Assembly: GCA_013115125.1 (NCBI GenBank)
Contig: JABANN010000049.1
Span: forward strand, 62,001-99,095
Direction: 5' to 3'
Origin: Perkinsus olseni
Lineage: Eukaryota
DNA length: 37,095 nt
Positions 19,579-37,095 of this stretch are shown here, piece after piece. The position numbers were made by a program, and so were the translations under genes. The first letter of the stretch is position 1. Each line of letters begins with the position of its first letter. The notes below the pieces were generated by a model that made no database searches, had not been told where the DNA came from, and was given only the letters and a program-made list of their open reading frames with translations.

Positions 19579-21575
19579 TCAATGAAAAGTCTGACACTTG
19601 TTCAGAAAAACTCTCAACGTCGTCGGGTGGCATATCTGAGACAAGATGCTTCCGTTAGGCGCACGAGTGCTGCCGTTGGTGTACATCAACATAGCAGCTC
19701 CGGTCGCCAATAGAGTAGAAGTCCCGATGTAGATCGACATGCAGAGGCATGCTTGCCGTACCTACACCCCGGCCTAGCGTTATGTGCCATTATAGACGCG
19801 GCGATGTTACGTTCAATTTGAGGTCTGAATAGACGATCCAAGTTAGAAGGGTTTGCAGGGATTGTGATAGGAGGAAGTTAGCGGTGAAAAGAGCGGCAAA
19901 ATGGCCCCTTTCCGGAGCGCCGCTGCTCTTCTCCGCACCGCAGGCGATTCCCTCCGTGTTCTCGTTCGACGGTGGGCTGGCGAACCCTGAGCGGATGGTA
20001 TCCTGCAGGGAGATGATTGAGTGTCTCTCCTCTCAACCTACTGCCACAATGGCCGATGAAGGAGGTGTTCATTATAGTGTAGGCACCAAAGTAGAGGATA
20101 AAACCGACGCTGAGACTCGTCAGCGCTGGTCGGCTCATGAGGAGGATGCACACTGATATTATCGCCGCTTCAATTATCATAGACCGATGTGCATGCGATA
20201 CGTGCTGGTCCAATACCCAATTGTTATTAGACAGCATTGCGCTGAGGGCACCTGCGGGGACAAGGGAGAGCTTATGGTGCAGCAGGCGCCACTGCACCTA
20301 CCTAGAAGAAGGCCGCTACTGGCGAGAATACCATTGTAGTCACCAACGTAGTGCTGTTCGACTTTGAGATAGTCGTAGAGGGAGGTCTCGTAGCCCCAGA
20401 CTAGAGAATGCACTGACGTGAGTACGCACCACAACGTGAGCTGAGGATGATGAGAGCCTTGTAAGTGGGAAGGGATGAAGAGTTACCATAAGGAGGAACA
20501 CTGGGCTGGAATATATCCGTTTGACCGATCGAAAAACCTTGGTTAGAGAAGGTGCCTTCGTGTATGACACTTGAGGGAATGAGAAAGCCAGCAGGAAGCC
20601 GGAAGTGATGGACACTAAATGGAGAGATAAAGAGGGGCTTCCCCGTTGCCTTGGTTACCAGCAGATATGTACATGAGGACGGTGAGGTCGCAGTTGAAGA
20701 CGTTTATAAGGACATCCCCGACGTACCCCGCGGAGACCTGACCGTGTAGGAAATCGCAATGACGAGGACAGATGGCTTACGTGGCCACCGAGGGTCGCCA
20801 TCTGCTGGAGGGCTATTATCCTCTGATAGTTCTCCCTTGTGACCAAGTTGAAGATATAACCGCCGAAAATGATGAGCATTGCCGAGCCCATACCTGCAGT
20901 TTCCGTTACAAAGACGACGAGGAGGAGCAAACAGTGCGTACTGTAGCAAATTTCGCTCAGTTGAAAGTGCCAGATCTCTGTGCCGTAGAGCATGCACATT
21001 CGAGTACAAAATCTTCCACCGGCGCCCATAATGATGGCGTACTTATACCTAGATTGGCAGTTGAACGGCGGACCGTCGGTCGTCGTCGTCTTACCCAAGG
21101 AACTCACAAATGTAACCCTGCAGCACGACGAAAACGAACTGCGCGTAACTACGACGAAGATAGGGGAGATTAGGTCCGGTCTGTCTTACGCTGCTATTGG
21201 GAAGATGTAGTGAACAATATCAGCTTGGGAAAAGCCCTTGACTTGACGCAAGTACTGGGCCATGTGCGGCTGACTCGGTTTGAAGGCCAGCAAGAAAGTG
21301 AAGAGACCTTGATGGTAGAGCCTCTCCAGTTTTAAGTACGGTTGGCGCCTTACATACGAGCACGCAGGCCCGGGACGAGTTCAGCGGTTGACTCCGCTCC
21401 TCGGACAGGTCAGTAGCTAGCAATGGCTCAGAGGCTCCCTGAAATGCGAACAGTTCTTGTGCAACTCGCCTGGAGGAGAGAAGGGCTGAGTGTCTCCTGG
21501 CCACGAATCCCCCACTTTTGAAGGCTCTCCGAGAACAGAATACTTTGCCGATGACGTGTGGGGAGGTGACGACAT
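19579..21575 (-). CDS. SLC19-family (reduced folate / thiamine) carrier (multi-exon)
   Basis: TM1 region FLLAFKPSQPHMAQYL...IFPI resembles the SLC19 RPSEPF..PYL...IYPV signature. RYKYAII...MLYGTEIWHFQLSE and YIFNLVTRENYQRI match the SLC19 TM2-5 pattern, followed by YNG. Exact start and stop are hand-assembled. Confidence 0.75.
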
Positions 21576-21694
21576 TGCAAAAACGGCAACTCGCGAGGGG
21601 TCAGCATCTCTTTCTCATGTCCTACTCAAATATCCGATCCAGTGAGGCTGACCGTGGAATAATCGAGCCAACGTAGAGCGTCCTAGTTTACCGC

Positions 21695-21855
21695 GCAGGA
21701 TATCCTGAAGTTGGCCACGCAGGATATCCAGAGGTGGACGGAGCATGATATCTTGAGGTTGATTGCGCAAGATATCTTGAGGTTGTGCAGGCGTTGTACC
21801 CCGAGGCTAGCGTGCGCGGTATCTTGAGGTTACCCGTGCAAGATACGAAAAAGCT
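21695..21855. repeat. Degenerate ~24-nt tandem repeat (7 units) in the divergent SLC19/PNO1 spacer
   Basis: Units start at 21695, 21719, 21743, 21767, 21791 (degenerate), 21814 and 21838 (partial). Consensus GCA(A/G)GATATCTTGAGGTT plus ~6 variable nt. Confidence 0.85.
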
Positions 21856-34365: not shown

Positions 34366-35327
34366 GTGGTATGACTGTAATCTATCGAGCATGAGCCATC
34401 TTCATGATGTTACCCGTGCTTGTGTGGCATGCTTCGCCATGCATGATACGTGTTAGAGCATTAATAACAGAGGTTTACTAGCTCGATGTAATATTGTTAC
34501 TCAGTCGGGAGTCGTGCTCCCTTCTAAGCTCACTTCTATCTCTCTTAGTCAGTTTGGTTACTGTATCTTCCTGGAAAGCTGTTCATAGCCGCTGTTAAGA
34601 GGCGTTGGTTGTTCAGACGTCTTCCTAAAGTTCATCTTGTCTGATAATTGTGAGCACCGTTCAATTACTTGAAGAGTTGCTCGGAACTGTGTAGATTAAC
34701 CAAATGTTGTTGTGCGCAATTCTTCCGACTTGTCCTCCTCAGACAGTCAATTTCCTCTACGTCAGAGAAAGATAGCGATTGTGTTCCTCAGAGCAGTACG
34801 TTCAATCGGGGGTGCCTGGATATGATATTAGGGAGCATCATTTTCTTGCCTAGGCCGTGGATCTGGACTGAGGCTCATCGGCAGTCGTGATATTGTAAGT
34901 GGACTAAGTAAGACTAATCATCGTCTGAGGAATAGGGAAGACTGCCCTGCGTTCTCCTTCGTCCACGCCTCGGAGTACGCCCCAGTAGTGGACCGCTGGC
35001 GCCCATAGTTGTGATGTGGAAGTCGGTCAGTTGGACTCACTGGATATGGCTGGTTTTGAGGGGTGCGTCTTGCTGATAGTCTGGCTACTCGAGGAGCATG
35101 GTCTCAGCGTAAAAAGAAGAGCGACACAATAATGGGTACATCCTTCTGGCGTTGCGTGCACGAAAGATACGATTTAACGGGACAAGTAGCTTTTCAGCTG
35201 ACACAAAGATCATTAGCTCGATACTCAGTGAGATTCACAGTTTTCAGTGTTCAGGACAAGCGGTCAATCCCGTTGCGAAAAGAGACTCAAATATCCCGTT
35301 CGTAGTTTTTAAGACGCCCTTTTGCTA

Positions 35328-37095
35328 ATGTTGTCTACATTAAATCACGGCCGCTCTCTGGCGGTCACAACAGCTCGTAGTCTTGCTGTGCCCGCTCAGA
35401 CTGCTGCTGTTGCTGGCAGTTCAAGGCATTTCGCTGGTAAAGCTTCTCCCAGTGGTGGTGAGTGGCAGACCATGGATGGTTGCACTGCTGTATGCCATTC
35501 GTCTTATGCTATGATGGATACCGCCTTCATCTACCCCATTACTCCTTCGTCCCCTGCTGCTGAGCTCGCTGAGCAGTGGTCAGCACTCGGTGTCAAGAAC
35601 GCCTTTGGTGATGTTCCCAAGATCACCCAGATGCAGTCCGAAGCTGGTGCCTCCGGTGCCCTTCACGGTGCTCTGGCCGCTGGTTCCTTGGCGACTACCT
35701 ACACTGCCAGTCAAGGTCTTCTCCTTATGGTCCCTAACATGTATAAGATCGCTGGTGAGCTTCTCCCCTGCGTTATGCATGTTGCTGCACGTGCTCTTGC
35801 TGGTCAAGCCTTATCCATTTTCGGTGATCATCAGGATGTCATGGCTGTCCGTCAGACCGGTTTCGCTATGATTAACGCCGATACTGTGCAGGAGTGCCAC
35901 GATATGGCTCTCATAGCCCACTTGGCTACTCTCAGAGCTAGAGTTCCCTTCGTTAGTTTCTTCGATGGTTTCCGTCTGTCTCATTGCATTGAGAAGGTCG
36001 ACACTTTGCCTTATAACCAGATGAGGAGGATGGTGGACATGAAGGCATTGAACGCTCATCGCGCAAGAGCCCTCAACCCCAATCGCCCTTATGTTCGTGG
36101 TACCAATGAGAACCCCGATGTCTACTTCCAGCAGTTCGAGGCTTCCAACTCTTTCTACGATAAGACACCTCAGATCGTGAAGGAGGAGATGGACCGTGTT
36201 GGTGCAGTTACCGGTCGTCACTATGATCTCTTCCAGTGGACCGGCCCCAAGGATGCCGAGGCCGCGGTTGTTGTTCTCGGTTCTGGCGCCAGTGTTGTTG
36301 AGGAGGCCTTGCCTTACATCAACTCGCAGGGCAAGAAGGTCGGTGTACTGAAGCCGCGTCTCTATCGTCCCTGGTCTTCTGAGGACTTCCTTAAGTCCTT
36401 GCCCAAGACTGTCAAGCGCATTGCTGTCTTGGATAGGACTAAGGAGCCTGGTTCCTTGGGCGAGCCTCTCTATTTGGATGTTGCCAGCACCATTCAGGAG
36501 TCTGACCGCACTAACATCAAGGTTATCGGTGGCCGTTGGGGTCTCGGACAGAAGGAGTTCACTCCTAGGTGTGTTGCCGCTGTGGCTGATAACCTCTACT
36601 CTCAGTACCCGAAGGATCACTTCACTGTGGGTATTGATGATGATGTTACCAAGAGGTCTCTTCCTCTTAATGAGGAGTTGAACGTCTCTCATCCCAAGAC
36701 GGTTGAGTGTCTCATCTACGGTTACGGTTCTGATGGTACTGTTGGTGCTAACAAGAACGCTACTAAGATCATTGGTGATAACACTGACCTCTTCGTCCAG
36801 GCGTACTTTGCTTACGGTTCGCAGAAGGCCGGTGGCTTGACTATGTCTCATTTGAGGTTTGGTCCCGAGCCGATCAAGTCGTACTACGCCGTCAACAAGG
36901 CCGATTACGTCGGTTGCCACAACCCCACCTACTTGGACATGTATCGTATGACCGATCATCTCAAGGAGGGTGGTACCTTCTGTTTGAACTCTCCTTTCAC
37001 TTCTGTTGAGGAGTGGAACAAGCATGTCCCCGCTGGTGTCCGTAAGGCTCTTGCCGAGAAGAACGCCAAGGTCTTCAACGTCGATGCCTTCAAGG
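35328..37095 (+). CDS. PNO: Pyruvate:NADP+ oxidoreductase / PFOR, copy 3 (truncated by the window end; intronless in the visible part)
   Basis: ATG 35328, MLSTLNHGRSLAVTTARS...SRHFAGKASPSGGEWQTMDGC..., [17 protein letters not shown], collinear with copy 2 to the edge. Missing from the ORF track, presumably because it has no stop inside the window. The reductase half is not visible. Confidence 0.92.
   Translation, partial: MLSTLNHGRSLAVTTARSLAVPAQTAAVAGSSRHFAGKASPSGGEWQTMDGCTAVCHSSYAMMDTAFIYPITPSSPAAELAEQWSALGVKNAFGDVPKITQMQSEAGASGALHGALAAGSLATTYTASQGLLLMVPNMYKIAGELLPCVMHVAARALAGQALSIFGDHQDVMAVRQTGFAMINADTVQECHDMALIAHLATLRARVPFVSFFDGFRLSHCIEKVDTLPYNQMRRMVDMKALNAHRARALNPNRPYVRGTNENPDVYFQQFEASNSFYDKTPQIVKEEMDRVGAVTGRHYDLFQWTGPKDAEAAVVVLGSGASVVEEALPYINSQGKKVGVLKPRLYRPWSSEDFLKSLPKTVKRIAVLDRTKEPGSLGEPLYLDVASTIQESDRTNIKVIGGRWGLGQKEFTPRCVAAVADNLYSQYPKDHFTVGIDDDVTKRSLPLNEELNVSHPKTVECLIYGYGSDGTVGANKNATKIIGDNTDLFVQAYFAYGSQKAGGLTMSHLRFGPEPIKSYYAVNKADYVGCHNPTYLDMYRMTDHLKEGGTFCLNSPFTSVEEWNKHVPAGVRKALAEKNAKVFNVDAFK

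What the first reader, a model, noticed from the sequence alone, without database searches (positions are those of the whole stretch)
19579..37095. Candidate cofactor-supply cluster: SLC19 thiamine/folate carrier head-to-head with an array of TPP-dependent PNO genes
Seen: the carrier (minus strand, start ~21575) and PNO1 (plus strand, start 22098) diverge from one ~520 nt spacer that holds a repeated motif. Established: PFOR/PNO requires thiamine pyrophosphate; SLC19A2/A3 carry thiamine and SLC19A1 carries folates and also thiamine phosphates. Inference: enzyme and cofactor importer may share a bidirectional promoter as a eukaryotic mini-cluster for anaerobic pyruvate oxidation. The adjacency could be chance.
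Basis: partly seen in the sequence, partly recalled or inferred. Interest (0 to 1): 0.75.

Follow-up and report, generated by a model that had tools for sequence, protein, structure and literature searches.

The report
Vitamin-type carrier beside pyruvate oxidoreductase genes
In a Perkinsus parasite genome, a divergent vitamin-carrier-family gene sits back to back with three copies of an anaerobic pyruvate enzyme gene, but nothing in its sequence shows that it supplies their thiamine cofactor, so this looks like an ordinary neighbour pair.

Summary
A 12-exon minus-strand gene (ATG 21575, stop 19579-81) encodes an SLC19/Folate_carrier-family MFS protein. It lies head to head with PNO1 (ATG 22098). 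PNO2 and a PNO3 cut off by the window end follow on the plus strand. The 522-nt spacer holds five copies of a 24-nt repeat with a 12-bp palindromic core.

RNA-run contigs show the carrier spliced. The carrier and PNO2 mRNAs carry the Perkinsus spliced-leader tail. The neighbourhood recurs in P. chesapeaki, where the two genes have consecutive locus tags. It could not be tested outside the genus.

The cofactor-supply reading is not supported. The carrier matches neither the thiamine (Glu/Met) nor the folate (Arg/Gln) specificity pair. It keeps 4 of 14 human thiamine contacts. It has lost two Glu residues that its own Perkinsus paralogs and most protist relatives keep. No TPP riboswitch was found, and the repeat is absent upstream of PNO2 and PNO3. 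Animal SLC19 carriers split into folate and thiamine types after the protist lineages branched off, so phylogeny cannot assign a substrate. Co-expression could not be measured.

Verdict: a divergent neighbour pair kept by descent, carrier substrate unknown. Low interest.

The parts
19579..21591 (-). SLC19-family (Folate_carrier) MFS carrier gene. It has 12 exons and encodes 483 aa. Exons in + coordinates: 19579-19761, 19811-19986, 20042-20251, 20302-20440, 20487-20614, 20659-20737, 20781-20893, 20942-21048, 21095-21148, 21190-21307, 21354-21438, 21516-21575. The ATG is at 21575, and the spliced-leader acceptor AG is the complement of 21590-21591.
   Evidence: tblastn with P0001. Exon model with an open frame, 94.4% identical to P0001, 98.5% to P0123 and 80.8% to P0002. 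Seven introns seen as joints in 4 of 4 runs, and a loose end TGAGCCAAG after 21591 in 3 of 4 runs. Pfam PF01770 at 120.7 bits for ortholog P0001.
21592..22097 (.). Divergent intergenic region, from the carrier's trans-splice acceptor to the PNO1 start codon. ATG to ATG is 522 nt.
   Evidence: Sequence. Word depth is low in the 21435-22061 bin in all 4 runs. This is descriptive only.
21685..21845 (.). Repeat array. Four tandem 24-nt units are followed by a fifth unit displaced by 47 nt.
   Evidence: TRF, the repeat finder families D1 and D2, and motif hits confined to this array.
21696..21779 (.). Four 12-bp palindromic cores (CARGATATCYTG) at 21696-21707, 21720-21731, 21744-21755 and 21768-21779. 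Cores 1 and 4 are perfect palindromes that differ by a symmetric G>A / C>T pair.
   Evidence: 4 hits against 0.38 expected; inverted repeats I4 and I7.
22098..27809 (+). PNO1, a pyruvate:NADP+ oxidoreductase of 1825 aa. Exons are 22098-22534, 22659-22803 and 22914-27809.
   Evidence: Pfam domains POR_N, PFOR_II, POR, EKR, Fer4, TPP_enzyme_C, Flavodoxin_1, FAD_binding_1 and NAD_binding_1. Model guided by orthologs. RNA contig pieces begin at 22914. The third exon (22914-27809) is 90.6% identical to P. chesapeaki FOL47_003960 and 92% to P. marinus XP_002765111.1.
28722..34365 (+). PNO2, of 1825 or 1829 aa. The spliced-leader acceptor AG is at 28722-28723, the ATG at 28746 or 28758, the intron at 28867-28996, and the stop codon ends at 34365.
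   Evidence: Loose end CTTGGCTCA before 28722 in 2 of 4 runs. Model 100% identical to P0131. 92% identical to P. marinus XP_002772896.1. Pfam domains.
35328..37095 (+). PNO3. Only the N-terminal 589 aa are present, because the gene is cut by the window end.
   Evidence: Pfam POR_N, PFOR_II and POR. 92% identical to P. marinus XP_002772895.1 and 95% to P0135.

Best explanation
This is a divergently transcribed neighbour pair that Perkinsus has kept by descent. It is not a demonstrated cofactor-supply module.

The carrier. The minus-strand gene encodes a 12-helix MFS carrier of the SLC19 (reduced folate / thiamine transporter) family. It is a fast-evolving paralog within a small Perkinsus family of such carriers. 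Inference: it moves a small vitamin-like solute by the usual MFS rocker-switch mechanism. Its N-terminus does not look like a mitochondrial presequence, so it probably works at the cell surface or an endomembrane. Its pocket is less acidic than that of thiamine carriers, so its substrate is probably not thiamine bound in the human manner.

The enzymes. The three plus-strand genes are old tandem paralogs of pyruvate:NADP+ oxidoreductase, in which a PFOR part is fused to an NADPH-cytochrome P450 reductase-like part. Each has a basic, presequence-like N-terminus, so a mitochondrial location is inferred.

The mRNAs and the spacer. The carrier and PNO2 mRNAs are shown to be capped by spliced-leader trans-splicing. 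Primary transcription of the carrier and PNO1 must therefore begin in or across the 0.5-kb spacer. The five palindrome-cored repeats there are the most likely protein-binding sites driving one or both genes. This last step is inference.
For: Family membership:
- Pfam PF01770 scores 120.7 and 108.9 bits for the orthologs, against a cut-off of 27.
- A protist profile matches human SLC19A2, A1 and A3 over the full length at 1.2e-77, 1.4e-75 and 6.5e-75.
- The AlphaFold model has pLDDT 83.5 and pTM 0.81. The top 22 Foldseek PDB hits are all SLC19A1-3, the best with target-normalised TM-score 0.92. The next MFS protein scores 2.5e-8.

Divergent paralog:
- The quick IQ-TREE tree has 44 rows. The carrier pair sits on a stem of 1.65 changes per column, next to the other Perkinsus paralogs (SH-aLRT 88), inside a starred 20-row protist clade.
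- The residue map gives Q61, A87, R122 and L148, against E, W, R and E in paralog P0139.
- Across the 151 family members examined, 128 have a residue at the Glu32 position. Of those, 117 have Glu and 2 have Gln. At the Glu120/Arg133 position 80 of 151 have Glu and 4 have Leu.

Expression and processing:
- Introns are spliced out in 4 of 4 runs.
- The loose ends match the tail of PmaSL1, ACCGTAGCCATCTTGGCTCAAG (PMC3101222 passages).

PNO:
- Domain architecture.
- Paralog identities are 75.9%, 78.8% and 85.2%. Orthologs between species are 90-92% identical. The triplication therefore predates the split of the species compared.
- PNO copies in P. marinus are already in print (PMC3879968 passages).

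Repeat.

Synteny: P. chesapeaki FOL47_003960 (the PNO1 ortholog) and FOL47_003961 (the carrier) have consecutive tags and accessions and lie on a contig of the same length.
Against: - The adjacency is conserved between species whose carrier proteins are about 81% identical. This is compatible with some selective constraint on the pair.
- SLC19 substrates do include thiamine, and thiamine phosphates for SLC19A1 (PMC9794768 passages). A link to a TPP enzyme is therefore chemically sensible.
- The carrier keeps the Glu110 and Tyr113 equivalents. Glu110 is the residue reported as critical for thiamine binding (PMC11447181 passages).
- Residue arguments carried over from human proteins about 20% identical are weak.
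- Palindromes kept through symmetric changes suggest a functional, orientation-independent element that could serve both genes.
- Carrier, PNO1 and PNO2 were all present in all 4 RNA-type runs.
Confidence: 0.6

Rival explanations
1. The carrier imports thiamine or a thiamine phosphate for the TPP-dependent PNO enzymes. Carrier and PNO1 are co-regulated from a shared bidirectional promoter, forming a selected mini-cluster.
For: - SLC19 membership.
- Head-to-head layout with a palindromic repeat array.
- Adjacency conserved in P. chesapeaki.
- Glu110 and Tyr113 equivalents kept.
- SLC19A1 handles TPP and TMP (PMC9794768 passages).
Against: - The specificity pair is Leu148/Thr353, which is neither the thiamine nor the folate state. 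Only 4 of 14 thiamine contacts are identical. N297>Gly, E320>Ala and W94>Arg correspond to changes that cripple the human carrier (PMC11447181 passages).
- Paralogs not known to be next to PNO keep the Glu32 and Glu120 equivalents and are better thiamine-carrier candidates.
- No TPP riboswitch in the window, although one is reported somewhere in the P. marinus genome (PMC4260697 passages).
- The repeat is absent upstream of PNO2 and PNO3.
- PNO looks mitochondrial, and TPP import into mitochondria is done by SLC25-type carriers in yeast and human (PMC9311062 passages).
- From general knowledge, every TPP enzyme of the cell would need the same supply.
Confidence: 0.1
2. Carrier and PNO1 share a bidirectional regulatory region and are co-expressed, but for a reason other than cofactor supply. 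The carrier might move another solute tied to low-oxygen metabolism, or the correlation might be incidental, as is usual for head-to-head pairs.
For: - A 0.5-kb divergent spacer.
- Orientation-free palindromes preserved by symmetric substitutions.
- Both genes present in the same 4 runs.
- The carrier is the only minus-strand gene among the nine genes identified in the window by Pfam.
Against: - No expression series could be examined, and contig depth cannot rank genes.
- mRNA 5' ends are set by trans-splicing, so promoter use is invisible here.
- The repeat may serve only one of the two genes.
Confidence: 0.2
3. The repeat is a neutral minisatellite and the adjacency is pure chance kept by short evolutionary distance. 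There is no regulatory or functional meaning.
For: - Copies are only 62-83% alike.
- The motif occurs nowhere else in 37 kb.
- Synteny was tested only within one genus.
- The finding was picked post hoc from many possible neighbour pairs.
Against: - The palindromic cores are better kept than the linkers, and symmetric changes preserve the palindrome.
- The array sits exactly between two divergent genes.
Confidence: 0.1

Closest known systems
Human SLC19A3 / SLC19A2 (thiamine transporters ThTr2 / ThTr1)
   Same: - Same Pfam family and same 12-helix MFS fold. The best structural match is apo SLC19A3, with target-normalised TM-score 0.92.
- The Phe56, Thr93, Glu110 and Tyr113 equivalents are kept.
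   Different: - About 20% sequence identity.
- Glu32>Gln, Trp59>Ala, Trp94>Arg, Glu120>Leu, Asn297>Gly, Glu320>Ala, Met384>Thr.
- The loop between helices 6 and 7 is short.
- Substrate untested.
Human SLC19A1 (reduced folate carrier)
   Same: - Equally distant homolog: profile E-value 1.4e-75, against 1.2e-77 and 6.5e-75 for A2 and A3.
- The Glu123 equivalent is kept.
   Different: - Lacks Arg133 (Leu), Tyr281 (His), Arg373 (Phe) and Gln377 (Thr). These bind the glutamate or phosphate part of folates and TPP (PMC9794768 passages).
Other Perkinsus SLC19-like paralogs (P0139 group including P. marinus XP_002783526.1; P0140; P0141)
   Same: - Same family, and nearest neighbours on the tree.
- All share Arg at the Trp94 position.
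   Different: - Only 30-31% identical.
- They keep an acidic residue at the Glu32 position and Glu at the Glu120 position, which the PNO-adjacent carrier has lost.
- Whether they lie near PNO is not known.
Pyruvate:NADP+ oxidoreductase of Euglena, Cryptosporidium, Blastocystis and dinoflagellates
   Same: - The same PFOR-CPR fusion architecture.
- PNO copies in P. marinus are already reported (PMC3879968 passages).
   Different: - Here there are three tandem paralogs with different intron layouts.
- No carrier linkage is reported in the papers seen.

Membership tests
SLC19 / Pfam PF01770 Folate_carrier | Match to the family HMM above its curated cut-off | tested here: met
   Orthologs P0001 and P0002 score 120.7 and 108.9 bits against a cut-off of 27. 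The window's largest single exon ORF alone scores 21.6 bits, below the cut-off. The window's spliced model is 94.4% identical to P0001.
SLC19 / Pfam PF01770 Folate_carrier | Full-length homology to the solved SLC19A1-3 proteins | tested here: met
   Profile A1 matches hSLC19A2 at 1.2e-77, A1 at 1.4e-75 and A3 at 6.5e-75, over about profile positions 16-426.
SLC19 / Pfam PF01770 Folate_carrier | MFS fold closest to SLC19 structures | tested here: met
   The model has pLDDT 83.5. Foldseek ranks 1-22 are all SLC19A1-3 at 1.8e-15 to 2.6e-10, and the next family scores 2.5e-8.
Thiamine-transporter subtype (SLC19A2/A3) | Specificity pair Glu120 + Met384 in A3 numbering (PMC9794768 passages) | tested here: not met
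   Leu148 and Thr353 occupy these columns. The control row, a primate SLC19A3 (P0285), shows E120 and M384.
Thiamine-transporter subtype (SLC19A2/A3) | Thiamine-contact residues named in PMC11447181: E32, I36, F56, W59, T93, W94, L97, M106, V109, E110, Y113, L296, N297, E320 | tested here: not met
   4 of 14 are identical (F56, T93, E110, Y113). The others are Q, A, A, R, M, F, S, W, G and A. The alignment in the C-terminal half is less certain.
Folate-carrier subtype (SLC19A1) | Arg133 + Gln377, and key residues Glu123, Tyr281, Arg373 (PMC9794768 passages) | tested here: not met
   Leu148, Thr353, Glu138 (kept), His259 and Phe349. The control row, a fish RFC (P0253), shows R, Q, E, Y and K.
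SLC19 carriers in general | Demonstrated transport of folate, thiamine or their phosphates | not testable with these tools
   Needs uptake assays.
Pyruvate:NADP+ oxidoreductase (PNO) | PFOR domains (POR_N, PFOR_II, POR, EKR, 2x4Fe-4S, TPP-binding) fused in one frame to flavodoxin, FAD and NAD(P) reductase domains | tested here: met
   PNO1 and PNO2 carry the PFOR and reductase domains in one frame. TPP_enzyme_C was listed only for PNO1. PNO3 shows the first three domains before the window ends. The nearest relatives are annotated PNO in P. marinus.
Functional gene cluster / co-regulated divergent pair | Linkage conserved across species | tested here: inconclusive
The P. olseni entries are 98% or more identical to the window and may be its own source. 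No P. marinus carrier ortholog was returned. No protist outside the genus could be examined.
Functional gene cluster / co-regulated divergent pair | Co-expression of the members | not testable with these tools
   Only assembled contigs of 4 runs could be laid. They show presence and splicing, not expression level.
Thiamine-regulated gene (TPP riboswitch) | TPP riboswitch (Rfam RF00059) in the gene's introns or UTRs | tested here: not met
   0 Rfam matches at gathering score in the whole window. No TPP match at E<=10 in 19000-23200.

The most novel reading that the evidence does not exclude
The carrier-PNO1 pair is a selected, co-regulated module. The palindromic repeat array would be an orientation-independent enhancer that responds to oxygen or nutrients and drives both genes. 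The carrier would be a neofunctionalised SLC19 paralog. It has lost two pocket glutamates but keeps the clade's Arg122, so it might move an anionic thiamine phosphate or another solute that PNO-based pyruvate oxidation depends on.
Probability: 0.08. Interest if true: 0.6.

Novelty: new member of a known kind. Interest (0 to 1): 0.22.

Why it matters
A real enzyme-plus-cofactor-importer cluster would be a rare case of operon-like logic in a protist. It would also give a handle on vitamin dependence in an important shellfish parasite.

As it stands, the useful results are more modest:
- A transcript-supported gene model for a divergent SLC19-family carrier.
- Evidence that SLC19-like carriers are widespread outside animals: 586 relatives at E<=0.001. 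They have their own pocket signature, Arg in place of Trp94.
- A candidate palindromic cis-element in a lineage whose promoters are poorly known.

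Tried and rejected
- Whole-genome access and earlier findings were unavailable.
- The one metagenome scan used PNO relative P0007 and returned 80 loci. All are bacterial-type PFOR without a reductase part: 0 of 80 have a CPR-domain hit and 0 of 80 an SLC19-like hit. Linkage outside Perkinsus therefore stayed untested.
- Word-index searches for carrier relatives found only the P. olseni and P. chesapeaki orthologs. A P. marinus ortholog was neither found nor excluded.
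- Supplementary table S2 of PMC4260697 would name the P. marinus gene that carries a TPP riboswitch.
- PMC9822521 (Wright et al.) is not held. PMC9794768 was used instead.
- Contig depths were not used to compare genes, as that tool warns against it.
- Shared upstream motifs among PNO1, PNO2 and PNO3: none of 8 nt or longer.
- The bacterial sigma-70 and terminator scan of the spacer gave nothing and does not apply to a eukaryote.
- A sub-threshold Rfam hit (flavi_FSE, 23.3 bits against a cut-off of 43) lies on the palindromic repeats. It was dismissed as chance.
- No meaningful chance probability can be given for a single adjacency noticed post hoc.
- Literature searches turned up no report of a carrier-PNO linkage. 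They covered Perkinsus with PNO, with thiamine, and with pyruvate/anaerobic/oxidoreductase, and SLC19 in protists. Only listings and passages were seen.

Full report
What is there.
The window is intron-bearing eukaryotic DNA. Its proteins are closest to those of Perkinsus. The carrier is 94-98% identical to P. olseni entries and 81% to the P. chesapeaki entry. The PNOs are 92% identical to P. marinus entries. A Pfam scan was run on 147 stop-to-stop frames out of the 183 of at least 70 aa. The 36 frames left out all begin at or after position 22600. They lie antisense to or overlapping the PNO genes. The scan found plus-strand genes for a class II aminoacyl-tRNA synthetase, a UBA-bearing ubiquitin hydrolase, COG7, a RuvB-like TIP49 ATPase, a lysine methyltransferase and a proteasome subunit. 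It also found three plus-strand PFOR-reductase fusions from 22.1 kb to the window end. One weak minus-strand Folate_carrier match (21.6 bits) lay at 20658-21185.

The carrier gene.
The 176-aa exon frame retrieved two full-length relatives: P. olseni P0001 and P. chesapeaki P0002. Both match Pfam PF01770, at 120.7 and 108.9 bits against a cut-off of 27. tblastn of P0001 on the window runs from 21575 to 19582 in exon-sized pieces. Contigs of four RNA-type public runs skip seven of the introns at GT..AG sites on the minus strand, in all four runs. With four more introns placed by frame and homology, the model has 12 exons and 11 introns of 41-77 nt. It encodes 483 aa with no internal stop. Contigs in three of the four runs continue beyond 21591 with TGAGCCAAG. 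Its reverse complement, CTTGGCTCA, is the tail of the published Perkinsus spliced leader PmaSL1, ACCGTAGCCATCTTGGCTCAAG (PMC3101222 passages). The terminal AG is shared with the genomic acceptor. The carrier mRNA is therefore trans-spliced 16 nt upstream of its ATG.

The PNO genes.
- PNO1 starts at 22098, where orthologs align from their residue 1. It has two introns, at 22535-22658 and 22804-22913, and encodes 1825 aa.
- PNO2 carries the same spliced-leader tail before 22722's counterpart at 28722, in two of the four runs. It has one intron at 28867-28996, and the model equals database protein P0131.
- PNO3 starts at 35328 and runs off the window.
The paralogs are 76-85% identical to one another, while each is 90-92% identical to a distinct ortholog in P. 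marinus or P. chesapeaki. The triplication is therefore older than those species. PNO copies in P. marinus, and the loss of mitochondrial PDH in this lineage, are already published (PMC3879968 passages). The N-termini are basic and rich in Ser, Ala and Arg. A mitochondrial location is an inference from this.

The spacer.
The start codons are 522 nt apart. TRF finds a 24-nt unit in 4.2 copies at 21686-21785. The repeat finder adds a fifth copy at 21804-21845. Each unit holds a 12-bp palindrome, CARGATATCYTG. It gives 4 hits against 0.38 expected, and none elsewhere in 37 kb. Copies 1 and 4 are perfect palindromes that differ by a symmetric pair of changes. This points to selection for the palindrome and fits a dimeric DNA-binding protein. 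The motif is absent upstream of PNO2 and PNO3. The three PNO upstream regions share no word of 8 nt or more.

Is the carrier a thiamine or folate carrier?
Family membership is secure. A profile of 20 protist relatives aligns over its full length with human SLC19A2, A1 and A3 at 1.2e-77, 1.4e-75 and 6.5e-75. An AlphaFold model with pLDDT 83.5 finds only SLC19 structures in Foldseek ranks 1-22. Those near-equal E-values already show that the carrier belongs to neither animal subtype.

The tree says the same. A quick IQ-TREE was built on 44 rows. These were the first 38 hits of 370-650 aa plus the six Trp94-bearing sequences of 370-700 aa. The Trp94-bearing sequences form one starred clade. Five of the six carry animal names: hemichordate, amphioxus, crab and lemur 'thiamine transporter', and salmonid 'reduced folate transporter'. 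The Arg-versus-Glu switch lies inside that clade. The folate/thiamine split therefore happened within animals, and phylogeny cannot assign a substrate to protist members.

Residues were read in an hmmalign of 151 family members, with a primate SLC19A3 (P0285) and a fish RFC (P0253) as numbered controls.
- The two positions reported as sufficient to set specificity are Arg133/Gln377 in A1 and Glu120/Met384 in A3 (PMC9794768 passages). In the Perkinsus carrier they are Leu148 and Thr353.
- Of 14 thiamine contacts named for SLC19A3 (PMC11447181 passages), four are identical: Phe56, Thr93, Glu110 and Tyr113.
- Asn297 is Gly, and the human N297A mutant loses about 250-fold in affinity. Glu320 is Ala, and E320Q loses about 20-fold. 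Trp94 is Arg, and W94R is listed as a disease mutation in that paper.
- Arg at the Trp94 position is the rule in non-animal members (112 of 151). So are Glu at the Glu32 position (117 of 128 with a residue there) and Glu at the Glu120 position (80 of 151).
- The PNO-adjacent carrier is unusual in having Gln and Leu at those last two positions.

Perkinsus has at least three further SLC19-like paralog groups: P0139 (which includes P. marinus XP_002783526.1), P0140 and P0141. They keep those acidic residues. On the tree the PNO-adjacent pair sits beside them on a long stem of 1.65 changes per column. The join has SH-aLRT 88 and is not starred. The carrier is thus a fast-evolving paralog with a less acidic pocket. 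If any Perkinsus SLC19-like protein carries cationic thiamine in the human manner, the paralogs are better candidates. This is inference from proteins about 20% identical, and the alignment in the C-terminal half is less certain.

Other tests of a thiamine link.
No Rfam family, including the TPP riboswitch, reaches its threshold in the window. None appears at E<=10 around the carrier. A TPP riboswitch is reported somewhere in the P. marinus genome (PMC4260697 passages). The gene is named only in a supplement that could not be opened. Matrix TPP is supplied by SLC25-type carriers in yeast and human (PMC9311062 passages). The carrier's first 37 residues are disordered in the model. By eye they do not resemble a presequence.

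Synteny.
P. chesapeaki FOL47_003960 (KAF4666657.1) is the PNO1 ortholog, 90.6% identical over the third exon. FOL47_003961 (KAF4666658.1) is the carrier ortholog. The two are consecutive in tag and accession, and both lie on a contig of 49,410 bp. A PNO3-like protein lies on a contig of the same length. Orientation and spacing there are unknown. The P. olseni entries are too close to the window to count as independent. No P. marinus carrier ortholog was returned, which does not show that it is absent. Outside the genus nothing could be tested.

Verdict.
It does not hold for the cofactor-supply logic, which the sequence evidence leans against and which remains experimentally open. A shared regulatory role for the palindromic array is plausible but untested. 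SLC19 was described as mainly an animal family (PMC3058773 passages). The 586 relatives found here at E<=0.001 include named or labelled entries from Cantina, Mesotaenium and MMETSP transcriptomes. This suggests a sizeable uncharacterised protist branch, and that is the more interesting by-product.

Noticed in passing
window 5333-19470: Six further Pfam-identified genes all lie on the + strand: a class II Asp/Asn/Lys-type tRNA synthetase (5333-6908), a UBP-type ubiquitin hydrolase with UBA domains (7374-10830), COG7 (about 11089-11595), RuvB-like TIP49 (15495-16845), a lysine methyltransferase (17511-18089) and a proteasome subunit (18300-19470). A sub-threshold ZUO1-like match (22.4 bits against 25.1) at 4890-5135 is also on the + strand. 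The carrier is the only minus-strand gene identified.
   Followed up: partly
window 18425-19428: The proteasome-subunit gene has eight GT..AG introns of 46-58 nt, seen in 3 or 4 of the 4 runs. Its contigs end near 19470. The convergent carrier's contigs end near 19569. The two mRNA 3' ends are therefore only about 100 nt apart.
   Followed up: no
window 22098-37095: The three PNO paralogs differ in intron layout. PNO1 has two introns in the POR_N region. PNO2 has one, just after the presequence-like N-terminus. PNO3 has none in the 589 codons visible.
   Followed up: partly
window 35328-37095: RNA-run contigs laid on PNO3 carry many differences from the window: dozens of substitutions in X1 and X2. 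PNO1 and PNO2 are covered mostly by long pieces with 0-1 differences. The reads on PNO3 probably come from an allele, strain or paralog.
   Followed up: no
window 27304: C in the window is read as T in the contigs of X4 and X11, the two runs on record as RNA. This could be a polymorphism or editing, and it cannot be told apart without matched DNA.
   Followed up: no
protein family (P0139-P0287; alignment A1): Non-animal SLC19-like proteins share their own pocket signature. At the human Trp94 position 112 of 151 have Arg. At the Glu110 position 114 of 151 have Gln. Most have Glu at the Glu32 and Glu120 positions. A conserved GYE(T/S)SLY motif replaces the Asn297 region. This looks like an uncharacterised protist and algal carrier branch.
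   Followed up: partly
window 21698-21748: A sub-threshold Rfam match to a flaviviral frameshift element (23.3 bits against 43, E 0.036) falls on the palindromic repeats. It is most likely a chance hairpin-like match.
   Followed up: no
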